A stretch of DNA of 64,000 nt from the NCBI RefSeq assembly GCF_030013595.1, contig NZ_CP122768.1; one strand, 5' to 3'. The notes beneath the pieces are model-generated. The model had not been told where the DNA came from. It searched no databases and saw only the letters and a program-made list of their open reading frames with translations. Positions 12,035-51,410 of this stretch are shown piece by piece. Position numbers and translations under genes: made by a program. This stretch comes from Escherichia coli (GTDB lineage: Bacteria > Pseudomonadota > Gammaproteobacteria > Enterobacterales > Enterobacteriaceae). Numbering within the stretch: the stretch's first letter is position 1; the number at the start of each line of letters is the position of its first letter.

Positions 12035-12146
12035 CCCCGGCTAGACCGGGGTGCGCGAATACTGCGCCAACACCAGGGAAATCTTGGCTGCGCCGTAAAT
12101 TATTATGATGAGTTACAAGGGCACAGCACTGTTTTTCAGGCCGCAC
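12026..12146 (-). ncRNA. arcZ: ArcZ small RNA (RyhA/SraH), convergent with arcB and overlapping its stop codon
   Basis: Minus-strand sequence from 12146 reads GTGCGGCCTGAAAAACAG…GGTGTTGGCGCAGTATTCGCGCACCCCGGTCTAGCCGGGGTCATTTTTT, matching the ArcZ sequence as I recall it, including the seed region and intrinsic terminator. Confidence 0.85.
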
Positions 12147-33616: not shown

Positions 33617-33735
33617 AATCTCGCGCTAACAACCTGGAATCGAGCCGTCATACTACGGCGCAACGCCCTATAAAGTAAACGATGACCCTTCGGGAACTTC
33701 AGGGTAAAATGACTATCAAAATGTGAATTGTAGCT

Positions 33736-33769
33736 GACCTGGGACCTGTACCCGGGTCGGTATTTTTTT
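33736..33769 (+). terminator. Intrinsic terminator in the greA leader (GraL-type attenuator)
   Basis: 8-bp stem GACCTGGG/CCCGGGTC (one U-G pair) followed by T7, about 95 bp upstream of greA; the greA leader is known to produce terminated GraL RNAs. Confidence 0.55.
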
Positions 33770-44289: not shown

Positions 44290-44366
<77 letters not shown>

Positions 44367-44487
44367 CTTTCCCTTAGAGTCCTTTTTCAAATATACTGTG
44401 AAGACTTCGGCCTTCGTAGTGGGATTTGAAAAAATCCTTCTGGAAAGTGCTCCAGACCGCAGTTGCGGTTATAGGGTTCAGTTATAT

Positions 44488-44513
44488 AAAGCCCCGATTT
44501 ATCGGGGTTTTTT
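44488..44513 (+). terminator. Intrinsic terminator/attenuator between metY and rimP
   Basis: AAAGCCCCGATTTATCGGGGTTTTTT; a second weaker hairpin plus T-run follows at 44535-44557. Confidence 0.7.
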
Positions 44514-44572
44514 GTTATCTGACTACAGAATAACTGGGCTTTAGGCCCTTTTTTTATGTCTTGGGGGTGGGC

Positions 44573-46564: not shown

Positions 46565-49237
46565 ATGACAGATGTAACGATTAAAACGCTGGCCGCAGAG
46601 CGACAGACCTCCGTGGAACGCCTGGTACAGCAATTTGCTGATGCAGGTATCCGGAAGTCTGCTGACGACTCTGTGTCCGCACAAGAGAAACAGACTTTGA
46701 TTGACCACCTGAATCAGAAAAATTCAGGCCCGGACAAATTGACGCTGCAACGTAAAACACGCAGCACCCTTAACATTCCTGGTACCGGTGGAAAAAGCAA
46801 ATCGGTACAAATCGAAGTCCGCAAGAAACGCACCTTTGTGAAACGCGATCCGCAAGAGGCTGAACGCCTTGCTGCGGAAGAGCAAGCGCAGCGTGAAGCG
46901 GAAGAGCAAGCCCGTCGTGAGGCAGAAGAATCGGCCAAACGTGAGGCGCAACAAAAAGCTGAACGTGAGGCCGCAGAACAAGCTAAGCGTGAAGCTGCTG
47001 AACAAGCGAAACGTGAAGCTGCGGAAAAAGACAAAGTGAGCAATCAACAAGACGATATGACTAAAAACGCCCAGGCTGAAAAAGCCCGCCGTGAGCAGGA
47101 AGCTGCAGAGCTCAAGCGTAAAGCCGAAGAAGAAGCGCGTCGTAAACTCGAAGAAGAAGCACGTCGCGTTGCTGAAGAAGCACGTCGTATGGCGGAAGAA
47201 AACAAATGGACTGATAACGCGGAACCGACTGAAGATTCCAGCGATTATCACGTCACTACTTCTCAACATGCTCGCCAGGCAGAAGACGAAAGCGATCGTG
47301 AAGTCGAAGGCGGCCGTGGCCGTGGTCGTAACGCGAAAGCTGCGCGTCCGAAGAAAGGCAACAAACACGCTGAATCAAAAGCTGATCGTGAAGAAGCACG
47401 CGCAGCAGTACGTGGCGGTAAAGGCGGAAAACGTAAAGGTTCTTCGCTGCAGCAAGGCTTCCAGAAGCCTGTTCAGGCCGTTAACCGTGACGTTGTGATC
47501 GGCGAAACCATCACCGTTGGCGAACTGGCGAACAAGATGGCGGTTAAAGGCTCTCAGGTCATCAAAGCGATGATGAAACTGGGCGCAATGGCAACCATCA
47601 ACCAGGTTATCGATCAGGAAACCGCACAGCTGGTTGCCGAAGAGATGGGCCACAAAGTTATCCTGCGTCGTGAAAACGAGCTGGAAGAAGCGGTAATGAG
47701 CGACCGTGACACGGGTGCAGCGGCTGAACCGCGCGCGCCGGTTGTGACCATCATGGGTCACGTTGACCACGGTAAAACCTCTCTGCTGGACTACATTCGT
47801 TCAACGAAAGTGGCCTCTGGCGAAGCGGGCGGCATTACCCAGCACATTGGTGCATACCACGTTGAAACTGAAAACGGCATGATCACCTTCCTGGACACCC
47901 CGGGGCACGCCGCGTTTACTTCAATGCGTGCTCGTGGTGCGCAGGCAACGGACATCGTAGTCCTGGTTGTTGCTGCCGACGACGGCGTCATGCCGCAGAC
48001 CATCGAAGCAATCCAGCACGCGAAAGCGGCGCAGGTTCCGGTGGTCGTTGCAGTGAACAAGATCGATAAACCAGAAGCCGATCCGGATCGCGTTAAGAAC
48101 GAACTCTCCCAGTACGGCATCCTGCCGGAAGAGTGGGGCGGTGAAAGCCAGTTCGTACATGTGTCTGCGAAAGCGGGTACTGGTATCGATGAGCTGCTGG
48201 ACGCTATCCTGCTGCAGGCGGAAGTTCTGGAACTGAAAGCGGTACGTAAAGGCATGGCGAGCGGTGCGGTTATCGAATCCTTCCTCGATAAAGGTCGTGG
48301 TCCGGTTGCTACCGTTCTGGTACGTGAAGGTACTCTGCACAAGGGCGATATCGTTTTGTGTGGCTTCGAATACGGTCGTGTTCGTGCGATGCGTAACGAA
48401 CTGGGTCAGGAAGTGCTGGAAGCGGGTCCGTCCATTCCGGTGGAAATCCTCGGCCTGTCCGGCGTTCCGGCTGCGGGTGATGAAGTTACCGTTGTACGTG
48501 ACGAGAAGAAAGCGCGTGAAGTTGCACTCTATCGTCAGGGTAAATTCCGCGAAGTTAAACTGGCGCGTCAGCAGAAATCTAAACTCGAGAACATGTTCGC
48601 CAACATGACCGAAGGCGAAGTTCACGAAGTGAATATCGTCCTGAAGGCAGACGTACAGGGTTCTGTGGAAGCTATCTCCGACTCCTTGCTGAAACTGTCT
48701 ACTGACGAAGTTAAAGTGAAGATCATCGGTTCTGGCGTAGGTGGCATCACCGAAACCGACGCTACCCTGGCTGCGGCGTCCAACGCCATCCTGGTTGGCT
48801 TCAACGTACGTGCTGATGCCTCTGCACGTAAAGTGATTGAAGCGGAAAGCCTGGATCTGCGTTACTACTCCGTCATCTATAACCTGATCGACGAAGTGAA
48901 AGCGGCAATGAGCGGTATGCTGTCTCCGGAACTGAAACAGCAGATTATCGGTCTGGCGGAAGTTCGTGACGTGTTCAAATCGCCGAAATTTGGTGCCATC
49001 GCAGGCTGTATGGTTACCGAAGGTGTGGTTAAACGTCACAACCCGATCCGCGTTCTGCGCGACAACGTGGTTATCTACGAAGGCGAGCTGGAGTCCCTGC
49101 GCCGCTTCAAAGATGACGTTAACGAAGTCCGTAACGGTATGGAATGTGGTATCGGCGTTAAGAACTACAACGACGTCCGCACTGGCGATGTGATCGAAGT
49201 ATTCGAAATCATCGAAATCCAACGTACCATCGCTTAA
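46565..49237 (+). CDS. infB: Translation initiation factor IF-2
   Basis: 890-aa ORF; G-domain GHVDHGKTS; repetitive Glu/Ala/Lys-rich N-terminal region. Confidence 0.97.
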
Positions 49238-49252
49238 GGTTTTTAGGGTTCC

Positions 49253-49326
49253 ATGCGGGATAAGGCGTTTACGCCGCATCCGGCATGGATTGCCTGATGC
49301 GACGCTGGCGCGTCTTATCAGGCCAA
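49253..49326. repeat. Pair of REP elements (BIME) between infB and rbfA
   Basis: GCGGGATAAGGCGTTTACGCCGCATCCGGCA and GCCTGATGCGACGCTGGCGCGTCTTATCAGGCC fit the enterobacterial REP palindromic unit. Confidence 0.8.
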
Positions 49327-49358
49327 CGTGAACAGCCCTTCCACCTGAAATTAATTTT

Positions 49359-49386
49359 AAAAAGGGGCTAACAGCCCCTTTTTTGT
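49359..49386 (+). terminator. A-tract/GC-hairpin/T-tract element just upstream of rbfA (candidate partial terminator)
   Basis: AAAAAGGGGCTAACAGCCCCTTTTTT with symmetric A and T runs, ending about 15 bp before the rbfA ATG. Confidence 0.5.
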
Positions 49387-49400
49387 CAGGAGAATTTATT

Positions 49401-49802
49401 ATGGCGAAAGAATTTGGTCGCCCGCAGCGTGTAGCGCAGGAAATGCAAAAAGAGATCGCTCTCATCCTGCAGCGTGAAATTAAAGATCCTCGTCTGGGCA
49501 TGATGACCACCGTTTCCGGTGTCGAAATGTCTCGCGACCTGGCGTATGCCAAAGTATATGTAACGTTCCTCAACGACAAAGATGAAGATGCGGTTAAAGC
49601 GGGCATCAAAGCGTTGCAGGAAGCTTCTGGTTTCATCCGCAGCCTGCTGGGTAAAGCGATGCGCTTGCGTATCGTGCCGGAACTGACCTTCTTCTACGAC
49701 AACTCGCTGGTTGAAGGGATGCGTATGTCAAACCTGGTGACCAGCGTGGTCAAACATGACGAAGAACGTCGTGTTAACCCGGACGACAGCAAGGAGGACT
49801 AA
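49401..49802 (+). CDS. rbfA: Ribosome-binding factor A
   Basis: Track ORF 139 aa; canonical 133-aa protein starts [20 protein letters not shown]. Confidence 0.93.
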
Positions 49803-50746
49803 TGAGTCGTCCTCGTCGTCGCGGTCGCGACATTAACGGCGTTTTGTTGCTGGATAAACCGCAGGGTATGTCCAGCAACGATGCGCTGCAAAAAGTGAAA
49901 CGGATTTATAACGCCAACCGTGCCGGGCATACCGGTGCGCTGGACCCGCTGGCAACTGGCATGTTGCCAATTTGCCTCGGGGAAGCGACGAAGTTTTCCC
50001 AGTATCTGCTGGACTCCGACAAACGCTATCGGGTGATTGCGCGTCTTGGACAGCGTACCGATACGTCTGACGCCGATGGACAAATCGTTGAAGAACGTCC
50101 GGTAACCTTTAGCGCAGAGCAACTGGCGGCGGCGCTGGATACTTTCCGTGGCGATATCGAACAGATCCCTTCGATGTATTCAGCACTGAAATACCAGGGC
50201 AAAAAACTGTACGAATATGCGCGTCAGGGCATTGAAGTACCGCGTGAAGCGCGCCCGATTACCGTTTATGAATTGCTGTTTATTCGCCACGAAGGCAATG
50301 AGCTGGAGCTGGAAATTCACTGCTCAAAAGGCACTTATATCCGCACCATCATTGATGACCTGGGTGAAAAACTCGGTTGTGGCGCGCATGTTATTTACCT
50401 GCGTCGTCTGGCGGTAAGTAAATATCCGGTTGAACGGATGGTGACCCTGGAACATCTGCGTGAACTGGTTGAACAAGCCGAACAGCAGGATATTCCAGCC
50501 GCGGAGTTACTTGATCCATTACTGATGCCAATGGACAGTCCAGCTTCGGACTACCCGGTGGTGAATCTTCCGTTAACGTCTTCTGTTTACTTCAAAAATG
50601 GTAACCCGGTTCGTACATCCGGTGCGCCGCTGGAAGGACTGGTTCGCGTTACAGAAGGTGAGAACGGCAAGTTTATCGGTATGGGCGAAATTGACGATGA
50701 AGGCCGCGTCGCGCCTCGTCGCCTGGTGGTTGAATACCCGGCGTAA
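49802..50746 (+). CDS. truB: tRNA pseudouridine-55 synthase
   Basis: 314-aa ORF; catalytic Asp motif [12 protein letters not shown]. Confidence 0.97.
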
Positions 50747-50798: not shown

Positions 50799-51164
<366 letters not shown>

Positions 51165-51180: not shown

Positions 51181-51209
51181 AAAAGGGGGCCTGAGTGGCC
51201 CCTTTTTTC
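51181..51209 (+). terminator. rpsO intrinsic terminator
   Basis: GGGGGCC-TGAGT-GGCCCC hairpin followed by TTTTTT. Confidence 0.8.
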
Positions 51210-51410
51210 AAGCTGACGGCAGCAATTCACTGGAAACTAATGTATTGTTGCTATGAATGATCTTCCGTTGCAGAGGTTCGCGCGGCTAATGAGAGGCTTT
51301 ACCCACATTGGGCTGGGTTAGGGTTGTCATTAGTCGCGAGGATGCGCAGAAGATCGGGTATTAACACCAGTGCCGTAAGGTACTGTCTAAGAAAGAGAAA
51401 GGATATTACA

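What the first reader, a model, noticed from the sequence alone, without database searches (positions are those of the whole stretch)
49253..49400. Two REP elements plus an A-tract/hairpin/T-tract structure upstream of rbfA within the nusA-infB operon
The infB-rbfA spacer carries two REP palindromes and then a symmetric AAAAA-GGGGC…GCCCC-TTTTTT hairpin ending about 15 bp before the rbfA start codon. The hairpin could act as a partial or bidirectional terminator or an RNA processing site separating infB from rbfA-truB expression.
Basis: seen in the sequence. Interest (0 to 1): 0.25.

Follow-up and report, generated by a model that had tools for sequence, protein, structure and literature searches.

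The report
Known infB–rbfA terminator with REP pair
The gap between the E. coli genes infB and rbfA holds two copies of a common repeat plus a hairpin that partly stops transcription; the hairpin is already described and mapped in E. coli K-12, so the finding is real but ordinary.

Summary
The window is E. coli. The 163-nt infB–rbfA spacer (49238-49400) holds two inverted REP palindromes (49250-49289 and 49291-49324). As a pair they score above the curated threshold of the Rfam REP-pair family naRNA4. Downstream is a perfect AAAAAGGGGCT/AGCCCCTTTTT hairpin (49359-49383) with a T6 tract, ending 16 nt before the rbfA ATG.

The interpretation as a partial terminator is supported, and it is already published. 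The literature calls this site terminator t3 upstream of rbfA. Northern blots show transcripts that stop there and transcripts that read through. The K-12 terminator is identical to the window's.

New here: all 84 Enterobacterales spacers examined keep the hairpin next to the rbfA ribosome-binding site, with 34 different loops among the 80 tabulated and compensatory stem changes. The upstream half varies from empty to REP, a REP pair or ERIC-like inserts. The REPs are therefore lineage-specific passengers.

No evidence was found for bidirectional termination or for a processing site. Novelty: already known. Interest: low.

The parts
49235..49237 (+). infB stop codon (TAA)
   Evidence: ORF 46565..49237. 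Annotated as infB in E. coli genomes.
49250..49289 (-). REP1, a palindromic unit of the GCCGGATGCGGCG (Y-like) type. Its core is on the minus strand. As RNA it forms a 40-nt hairpin that starts 12 nt after the infB stop codon.
   Evidence: Inverted repeat I1. Core match at 49272-49284 on the minus strand. Fold -25.7 kcal/mol, z = -5.8.
49291..49324 (+). REP2, a palindromic unit of the GCCTGATGCGACGC (Z2-like) type, in the opposite orientation to REP1. Together they form a two-unit BIME-type cluster.
   Evidence: Inverted repeat I3. Core match at 49292-49304 on the plus strand. Fold -21.4 kcal/mol, z = -5.6. The pair 49254-49324 scores 77.2 bits against Rfam naRNA4, gathering score 59.5.
49359..49363 (+). 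A-tract (AAAAA) that can pair with the T-tract and extend the terminator stem
   Evidence: The extended hairpin folds at -14.8 kcal/mol, against -9.5 for the GC core alone.
49364..49378 (+). Terminator hairpin core: GGGGCT, loop AAC, AGCCCC
   Evidence: Identical in K-12. A hairpin at this position is present in all 84 Enterobacterales spacers examined.
49379..49384 (+). T6 tract (U-tract of the intrinsic terminator)
   Evidence: Tail score -5.24 with the TransTermHP-style formula.
49386..49388 (+). Positions corresponding to the dominant RNA 3' ends mapped in K-12 (3313193-3313191; peak range 3313197-3313188 = window 49382-49391)
   Evidence: PMC10687069 Supplementary Data 2 and 3. The coordinates transfer through the gap-free alignment of the window and K-12 spacers.
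49388..49392 (+). rbfA Shine-Dalgarno sequence (AGGAG), 8 nt before the ATG
   Evidence: GGAG is conserved in all 80 Enterobacteriaceae spacers.
49401..49802 (+). rbfA coding sequence (133 aa plus stop)

Best explanation
The spacer combines two unrelated things.

(1) An ancestral intrinsic (hairpin plus U-tract) terminator sits immediately 5' of the rbfA ribosome-binding site. It is the published terminator t3 of the metY-rimP-nusA-infB-rbfA-truB operon. A fraction of RNA polymerases release the transcript 7-10 nt past the GC stem, at window 49386-49388. These RNAs end just before or within the first base of the rbfA Shine-Dalgarno sequence and so encode rimP, nusA and infB only. The remaining polymerases read through, and this read-through is the only visible source of rbfA-truB mRNA. 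The site therefore works as an internal attenuator that sets rbfA-truB expression below that of infB.

(2) Upstream of the terminator lies a two-unit REP cluster of BIME type. It is a lineage-specific insertion into the variable half of the spacer, not part of the conserved terminator module. Its most likely effects are the generic ones known for REPs: protecting upstream mRNA from 3' exonucleases in read-through or processed transcripts, possibly damping infB translation termination because it starts within 16 nt of the stop codon, and binding DNA gyrase at the DNA level.

Shown: the sequence anatomy, the conservation pattern, the published in vivo 3' end and the published northern pattern. 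Inferred: that the 3' end arises by factor-independent termination, the read-through fraction, and any role of the REPs.
For: Anatomy: a perfect 11-bp arm pair with a GGGGCT/AGCCCC core and a T6 tract. Hairpin score -11.4 and tail score -5.24 with the TransTermHP-style formulas.

In vivo 3' end: K-12 minus strand 3313188-3313197, dominant 3313191-3313193, signal 0.85-0.98, adjusted p-values down to 1e-218, in Supplementary Data 2 and 3 of PMC10687069. The fold sequence printed there is identical to the window's.

Northern blots: a ~4.8 kb RNA lacking rbfA and a ~6.7 kb RNA including it. mRNA levels run nusA > infB > rimP > rbfA, and infB mRNA is about twice rbfA mRNA (PMC6511841).

No promoter: no sigma-70-like promoter was found in 48800-49900, so rbfA depends on read-through.

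Identity with K-12: K-12 has the identical terminator and a gap-free 163-nt spacer.

Conservation of the hairpin: 80 of 80 Enterobacteriaceae spacers and 4 of 4 Erwiniaceae-type spacers carry a hairpin at a fixed distance from the rbfA RBS. There are 34 different loop sequences among the 80. G-run and C-run lengths change together (4, 5 or 6). The Erwiniaceae-type loci show a compensatory G:C to A:T change (GGGAGGCC/GGCCTCCC).

REPs as passengers: spacer length runs from 62 to 289 nt. There are no repeats in Cedecea, Buttiauxella, Atlantibacter and Shimwellia. Klebsiella and Enterobacter carry one REP of another type. Salmonella diarizonae, Raoultella and Citrobacter carry ERIC-like inserts.

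REP family membership: Rfam naRNA4 77.2 bits. The spacer matches a median of 14 places per E. coli genome.
Against: The curated Term-seq list of Adams et al. 2021 (PMC7815308) has no 3' end with a coordinate in 3313xxx in its three conditions. That list also lacks the rpsO terminator end at 3311367, which TRS reports with signal 0.95-0.98, so it appears insensitive here.

The session's own consensus terminator scan did not call the site. The probable reason is that A-T pairing absorbs the T-tail into the stem; this is my inference.

3'-end mapping cannot by itself separate termination from exonucleolytic trimming back to a stable hairpin.

Termination efficiency has not been measured. The TRS 'signal' is a peak statistic, not an efficiency.

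In Erwiniaceae-type and Atlantibacter spacers the T-tract is weak, with tail scores of -2.0 to -2.4. The conserved hairpin may therefore have a role beyond termination.
Confidence: 0.88

Rival explanations
1. The REP pair (BIME), not the downstream hairpin, is the element that attenuates transcription into rbfA. Naville & Gautheret 2010 proposed this for a BIME cluster upstream of rbfA, gatY and cvpA. Espeli et al. 2001 showed BIME-associated attenuation in a reporter.
For: PMC2965389 lists rbfA in its largest enterobacterial 'attenuator' cluster, identifies the cluster as BIMEs, and cites BIME-associated attenuation and bidirectional termination. The two REP hairpins are very stable, -25.7 and -21.4 kcal/mol.
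Against: Neither REP is followed by a U-tract. In the TRS lists the only 3' terminus in the spacer is at the T-tract hairpin; nothing is listed between K-12 3313198 and 3315058. The REPs are absent or replaced by other repeats in most genera, while the terminator is kept. The claimed 'conservation in position' is therefore not general.
Confidence: 0.06
2. The hairpin is a bidirectional terminator that also stops antisense transcription coming from the rbfA-truB side.
For: The element is symmetric. On the minus strand it reads AAAAAAGGGGCTGTTAGCCCCTTTTTA and folds at -15.7 kcal/mol. Its hairpin score is -11.4 and its tail score -4.69. The A-tract (4 or more A in the 6 nt before the stem) is present in 65 of 80 Enterobacteriaceae spacers.
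Against: infB, rbfA, truB, rpsO and pnp are all on the same strand. The nearest known antisense gene, sraG, lies about 1.8 kb downstream. No 3' terminus is listed at K-12 3313210-3313269 on either strand. No promoter-like site was found on either strand in 48800-49900. The A-tract is absent in the genera with the shortest spacers. It is explained equally well as a stem extension that may strengthen forward termination (my inference).
Confidence: 0.05
3. The 3' end is made by processing: longer transcripts are cut downstream and trimmed back by 3' exonucleases to the stable hairpin. In addition, or instead, the conserved hairpin mainly serves rbfA, as a 5'-proximal stabiliser or a fixed structural context for its ribosome-binding site.
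For: The hairpin keeps a nearly fixed distance to the rbfA ATG (21-23 or 27-30 nt) in 80 of 80 spacers. It is retained with compensatory changes in Erwiniaceae-type loci where the T-tract is too weak for the usual terminator tail threshold (about -2.5, recalled) (tail score -2.0). This suggests selection on the structure itself.
Against: In E. coli the ends lie 8-10 nt past the GC stem, after a U6 run, which is the typical geometry of intrinsic termination. A global RNase III mapping study lists its operon site at rimP-metY, not here. No 5' end has been reported in the spacer.
Confidence: 0.08

Closest known systems
Terminator t3 of the E. coli metY-rimP-nusA-infB-rbfA-truB operon (Plumbridge & Springer 1983, as cited by Brandi et al. 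2019, PMC6511841)
   Same: It is the same element. The K-12 sequence across the hairpin, T-tract and RBS is identical to the window, and the spacer is 163 nt in both with no gaps. The published northern pattern and the mapped 3' end fit the site.
   Different: There is no difference in the terminator. The window differs from K-12 at 3 positions inside the REPs (a fourth difference lies in the last infB codons).
BIME / REP (palindromic unit) repeats of E. coli; Rfam naRNA4 (RF02564), the REP325-derived REP-pair RNA
   Same: Two palindromic units lie in inverted orientation, extragenic, in the 3' region of a gene. The core sequences match the canonical GCCGGATGCGGCG and GCCTGATGCGACGC types. The covariance-model score is above the gathering threshold.
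   Different: There are only two units. The 1-nt linker between them leaves no room for an IHF site. Nothing shows that this copy yields a discrete nucleoid-associated RNA, and no 3' termini were called at the REPs.
rimP-leader attenuator (Rfam RF01770; Naville & Gautheret 2010)
   Same: It lies in the same operon. It is a G-run/C-run hairpin (GGGC-TTTAG-GCCC-T7, about window 44536-44555) directly upstream of the RBS of a 30S-maturation factor gene, and it is a partial terminator.
   Different: The rimP-leader model does not match the infB-rbfA spacer even at E <= 10. The t3 stem is longer and far more stable (hairpin score -11.4 against -6.2). No link to NusA feedback has been shown for t3 specifically.
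Bidirectional intrinsic terminators (A-tract, hairpin, T-tract)
   Same: The A5/T6 flanks are symmetric and both strands pass hairpin and tail scoring.
   Different: Such terminators typically sit between convergent genes (recalled). Here both neighbours are co-directional and no antisense 3' end is listed.

Membership tests
Intrinsic (Rho-independent) terminator | Short GC-rich hairpin | tested here: met
   GGGGCT/AGCCCC stem with loop AAC, -9.5 kcal/mol for the core and -14.8 with the A-U extension. Hairpin score -11.4.
Intrinsic (Rho-independent) terminator | U-rich tract immediately 3' of the stem | tested here: met
   T6 at 49379-49384, tail score -5.24.
Intrinsic (Rho-independent) terminator | RNA 3' ends in vivo a few nt into or past the U-tract | tested here: met
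   Published K-12 3' terminus at 3313191-3313193, equal to window 49386-49388 (PMC10687069). The sequence is identical in the window. The curated list of PMC7815308 lacks it.
Intrinsic (Rho-independent) terminator | Termination by RNA polymerase alone in vitro, independent of Rho | not testable with these tools
   This needs in vitro transcription or bicyclomycin data. None was found in the library searched.
Internal operon attenuator (partial terminator) | Both terminated and read-through transcripts exist, and the downstream genes lack their own promoter | tested here: met
   Northern bands at ~4.8 kb (no rbfA) and ~6.7 kb (with rbfA) (PMC6511841). No promoter-like site in 48800-49900. The promoter scan is only a consensus scan.
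REP / BIME repeats | Imperfect palindrome of about 35-40 nt with the conserved GCC(G/T)GATGCG(G/A)CG core | tested here: met
   Cores at 49272-49284 (-) and 49292-49304 (+).
REP / BIME repeats | Many dispersed extragenic copies per genome | tested here: met
   The spacer matches a median of 14 places per E. coli genome. The core occurs 4 times in the window against 0.63 expected.
REP / BIME repeats | BIME: adjacent units in alternating orientation | tested here: met
   The two units are on opposite strands and 1 nt apart (49289 and 49291). Assignment to BIME-2 (Y plus Z2 units) rests on consensus sequences recalled from memory.
Rfam naRNA4 (RF02564) | Covariance-model score at or above the gathering threshold | tested here: met
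   77.2 bits against 59.5.
Rfam naRNA4 (RF02564) | A discrete RNA that acts with HU on nucleoid structure | not testable with these tools
   No expression or binding data exist for this copy. No discrete 3' termini were called at the REPs.
Bidirectional terminator | Transcripts on both strands end at the element | tested here: not met
   No terminus is listed at K-12 3313210-3313269 on either strand in the TRS supplements. This holds only within the sensitivity of those data.
rimP-leader (RF01770) | Match to the family covariance model | tested here: not met
   RF01770 does not hit 48900-49700 at E <= 10. The genuine rimP leader at 44455-44555 scores 102 bits.

The most novel reading that the evidence does not exclude
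The hairpin upstream of rbfA may be more than a generic terminator. It may be a conserved, sequence-specific regulatory hairpin with a G-run 5' arm and a C-run 3' arm. It sits directly 5' of the RBS of a 30S-maturation factor gene, which parallels the rimP-leader hairpin at the head of the same operon. On this reading, read-through or rbfA translation responds to a trans-acting factor such as NusA feedback or cold-shock Csp antitermination. It would explain why the structure persists, with compensatory changes, in Erwiniaceae-type loci whose U-tract is too weak for efficient termination. The published claims about Csp-mediated antitermination in this operon conflict (Bae et al. 2000, as cited in PMC12562117, against Brandi et al. 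2019), and t3 has not been tested on its own.
Probability: 0.1. Interest if true: 0.4.

Novelty: already known. Interest (0 to 1): 0.1.

Why it matters
It matters little as a discovery. The terminator, its position and its partial read-through are in the literature, and REP/BIME elements are textbook E. coli repeats.

The comparative picture adds modest value. It separates an ancestral terminator-plus-RBS module, kept across Enterobacterales, from a repeat-insertion hot spot immediately upstream. It therefore argues against the published suggestion that the BIME itself is a positionally conserved attenuator before rbfA.

The case is also a useful caution for automated terminator scans. A/T-flanked hairpins can be missed when the stem is extended into the U-tract.

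Tried and rejected
(1) The consensus terminator scan found nothing in 48800-49900. I rejected this as a false negative, given the mapped 3' end.

(2) RNAalifold on a MAFFT alignment of 38 hairpin regions gave only 3 pairs and no covariation. MAFFT put stems of different length out of register. I replaced it with a per-sequence hairpin search.

(3) Supplement look-ups gave no entry or no held files for PMC7815308, PMC6061677, PMC9023263, PMC12207403 and PMC6131387. Only PMC10687069 held the datum.

(4) Three papers are not in the library and could not be read: Bae et al. 2000 (PMC16622), Ju et al. 2019 on SEnd-seq and Liang et al. 2015 (PMC4427526). Their content is cited only through other papers.

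(5) A possible outer helix CCUGA/UCAGG that would cover part of the rbfA Shine-Dalgarno sequence (MFE fold) is not conserved. Most genera have TCTGG with no complementary partner. I dropped it.

(6) Kinship of t3 with the rimP-leader was tested with the Rfam model and gave no hit.

(7) RNase III processing was considered. The global RNase III study lists its site in this operon at rimP-metY.

Full report
**What is in the sequence.** The window is Escherichia coli. A 651-nt query across the site is 100% identical to strain C4 and is present at 80% coverage or more in 5,422 of 5,426 complete E. coli genomes, always between infB and rbfA.
- infB ends at 49237 and the rbfA ATG is at 49401, so the spacer is 49238-49400, 163 nt. 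K-12 MG1655 has the same length (3313179-3313341).
- REP1 has arms 49250-49268 and 49271-49289.
- REP2 has arms 49292-49305 and 49310-49323.
- The third palindrome has perfectly complementary 11-nt arms, AAAAAGGGGCT (49359-49369) and AGCCCCTTTTT (49373-49383), around the loop AAC.
- The T-tract is 49379-49384, the AGGAG Shine-Dalgarno is 49388-49392, and 16 nt separate the T-tract from the ATG.

**Is it more than chance?** Yes.
- The spacer RNA folds at -73.2 kcal/mol, z = -6.6.
- The REP hairpins fold at -25.7 and -21.4 kcal/mol, z about -5.7.
- The degenerate REP core occurs 4 times in the window against 0.63 expected. Two of these lie here, on opposite strands.
- The pair 49254-49324 scores 77.2 bits against Rfam naRNA4, a family built on a REP pair, whose gathering score is 59.5.
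- The pattern GGGGC-N3-6-GCCCC-TTTT occurs nowhere else in the 64 kb and never in shuffles.
- The session's consensus terminator scan did not report the hairpin. I attribute this to the A-T pairs absorbing the T-tail into the stem. With TransTermHP-style formulas the element scores -11.4 (hairpin) and -5.24 (tail).

**What it is: published evidence.** K-12 has an identical hairpin, T-tract and RBS, and the spacer alignment is gap-free with 3 substitutions, all inside the REPs. K-12 literature therefore transfers directly.
- Brandi et al. [quoted passage not shown]
- Their northern blots show a ~6.7 kb RNA detected by rimP, nusA, infB and rbfA probes. [quoted passage not shown]
- Steady-state mRNA runs nusA > infB > rimP > rbfA, and infB mRNA is about twice rbfA mRNA.
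[quoted passage not shown] Its Supplementary Data 2 and 3 list a minus-strand 3' terminus with peak 3313188-3313197 and dominant position 3313191-3313193.
- That terminus has signal 0.85-0.98 and adjusted p-values down to 1e-218. It is annotated 'Alternative primary in TU, infB' and printed with the fold sequence CCUUCCACCUGAAAUUAAUUUUAAAAAGGGGCUAACAGCCCCUUUUUUGUCA.
- With window = 49401 + (3313178 - K-12 coordinate), the dominant ends fall at 49386-49388.
- In the same lists nothing else is called between 3313198 and 3315058. There is no end at the REPs and no antisense end.

**A negative data set.** The curated Term-seq list of Adams et al. 2021 (PMC7815308) has no 3' end in 3313xxx. It also lacks the rpsO terminator end at 3311367, which TRS reports with signal 0.95-0.98. 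I therefore read this as low sensitivity, not absence.

**Comparative analysis (new here).** An RbfA-guided scan returned 80 loci, each from a different species-level genome of Enterobacteriaceae. 79 spacers could be delimited. Four Erwiniaceae-type loci were added through protein look-ups.
- Spacer length ranges from 62 to 289 nt.
- Every spacer ends with the same module: a G-run/C-run hairpin, a T-rich tail, then GTC...GGAG and the ATG. The stem end lies 21-23 or 27-30 nt before the ATG.
- Stem types among 80 sequences: GGGGC/GCCCC 44, GGGGCT/AGCCCC 18, G6C/GC6 12, G5CC/GGC5 3, G5C/GC5 2, G5/C5 1. There are 34 distinct loop sequences.
- Three of the four Erwiniaceae-type loci have GGGAGGC(C)/(G)GCCTCC(C) or a close variant, a two-sided G:C to A:T replacement. 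The structure, not the loop sequence, is under constraint.
- The T-tract is strong in the Escherichia-Salmonella-Klebsiella-Enterobacter group (6-7 T of 8). It is weak in Atlantibacter (tail score -2.4) and in the Duffyella- and Tatumella-type loci scored (-2.0). The A-tract follows the same distribution.

**The upstream half of the spacer is not conserved.**
- Cedecea, Buttiauxella, Atlantibacter, Shimwellia and Franconibacter carry no repeat there.
- Klebsiella, Enterobacter, Yokenella and Leclercia carry a single REP of a different type (GCCGGGTGGCGC...).
- Escherichia, Pseudocitrobacter and one Citrobacter carry an E. coli-type REP pair.
- Salmonella diarizonae, Raoultella, Citrobacter youngae, Intestinirhabdus and Phytobacter carry a longer insert. 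It resembles the ERIC element: local alignment scores of 9-16 (out of 22) to the ERIC primer sequences, which I recalled from memory, against 5-8 in controls.
- Within E. coli there are two spacer haplotypes. They differ in REP1 and in the terminator loop (CTAACAG against CT(T)ATGG). The second is shared with E. albertii.
- The REPs are thus lineage-specific insertions into a repeat-prone site next to an ancestral terminator.
- This weakens the proposal of Naville & Gautheret 2010 (PMC2965389) that a BIME conserved 'in sequence and position' is the attenuator before rbfA.

**Mechanism.** The best-supported model is an intrinsic, partial terminator acting as an internal attenuator.
- Terminated RNAs end just before or within the first base of the rbfA Shine-Dalgarno sequence and so cannot express rbfA.
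- Read-through RNAs carry rbfA-truB.
- No promoter-like site lies in 48800-49900 on either strand.
- Steps shown: the anatomy, the conservation, the in vivo 3' end, and the coexistence of terminated and read-through RNAs.
- Steps inferred: factor independence, the efficiency of termination, and any regulation.
- Csp-mediated antitermination has been claimed for this operon (Bae et al. 2000, cited in PMC12562117). Brandi et al. dispute it. Neither tested t3 in isolation.
- For the REPs I infer only the generic roles. REP1 starts 12 nt after the infB stop codon. That is inside the fewer-than-16-nt distance at which REPs were reported to reduce translation of the upstream gene (Liang et al. 2015, as summarised in PMC12306157). 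This is untested for infB.

**Rivals.**
- BIME-mediated attenuation: no 3' ends at the REPs, no U-tract after them, and no conservation.
- Bidirectional termination: the element is symmetric and passes scoring on the minus strand (tail score -4.69). However, all neighbouring genes are co-directional and no antisense end is listed.
- Processing or an RBS-context role: this is suggested only by retention of the hairpin where the U-tract is weak.

**Comparison with the rimP-leader.** The rimP-leader hairpin at the head of the same operon (GGGC-TTTAG-GCCC-T7, about 44536-44555) has the same G-run/C-run design next to an RBS. The Rfam rimP-leader model does not match the infB-rbfA spacer. The resemblance is a lead, not a membership.

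**Verdict.** The element is already known (terminator t3 plus a BIME-type REP pair), and interest is low.

Noticed in passing
window 44290-44366: The initiator tRNA gene at the metY locus differs from K-12 metY at one base: position 47 of the 77-nt gene is G here and A in K-12. This strain therefore carries the tRNA-fMet1-type sequence at this locus. PMC6511841 says metY is absent from some strains and that MRE600 carries metZ.
   Followed up: partly
L006, L012, L047, L020, L038 (infB-rbfA spacers, locus coordinates about 1211-1500): In Salmonella diarizonae, Raoultella, Citrobacter youngae, Intestinirhabdus and Phytobacter the same spacer holds a 120-200 nt insert that resembles the ERIC repeat. 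Two of these carry a further internal insertion. The site is a hot spot for different intergenic repeats in different genera.
   Followed up: partly
L087-L089 (Erwiniaceae-type loci, about 530-600): The hairpin before rbfA is retained with a compensatory stem change (GGGAGGCC/GGCCTCCC). The T-tract is replaced by GAATTATTTG, with a tail score of about -2.0. This is too weak for a typical intrinsic terminator and hints at a second role for the structure.
   Followed up: partly
window 49230-49405 against L082, L083, L002, L003: E. coli has two haplotypes of this spacer. They differ in REP1 and in the terminator loop. The minority type is nearly identical to the E. albertii sequence. About 700 of 5,426 genomes have a best spacer match below 95% identity (in some of these the best match is a REP at another locus).
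   Followed up: partly
window 48800-49900: The consensus terminator scan reports no site, although an experimentally mapped terminator lies at 49359-49384. Hairpins flanked by an A-tract and a T-tract seem to be missed when the stem is extended through the T-tract.
   Followed up: no
window 49235-49250: The REP1 hairpin begins 12 nt after the infB stop codon. This is within the fewer-than-16-nt distance at which REPs have been reported to stall terminating ribosomes and lower expression of the upstream gene. It has not been tested for infB.
   Followed up: no
window 44488-44556 and K-12 3311363-3311374: The rimP-leader t2 hairpin (GGGC...GCCC-T7), t3 (GGGGC...GCCCC-T6) and the rpsO terminator (AAAAGGGGGCC...GGCCCCUUUUUU, from the TRS table) all have a G-run 5' arm and a C-run 3' arm. 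This may be coincidence or a shared property of terminators in this NusA-autoregulated region.
   Followed up: partly
window 51181-51352 (-), 50837-50951 (+), 44455-44555 (+), 12039-12146 (-), 33647-33768 (+), 56691-56814 (+): Other Rfam matches above the gathering score in the window are SraG, the S15 leader, the rimP leader, ArcZ, the greA leader and STnc490. All are expected for this E. coli region.
   Followed up: no
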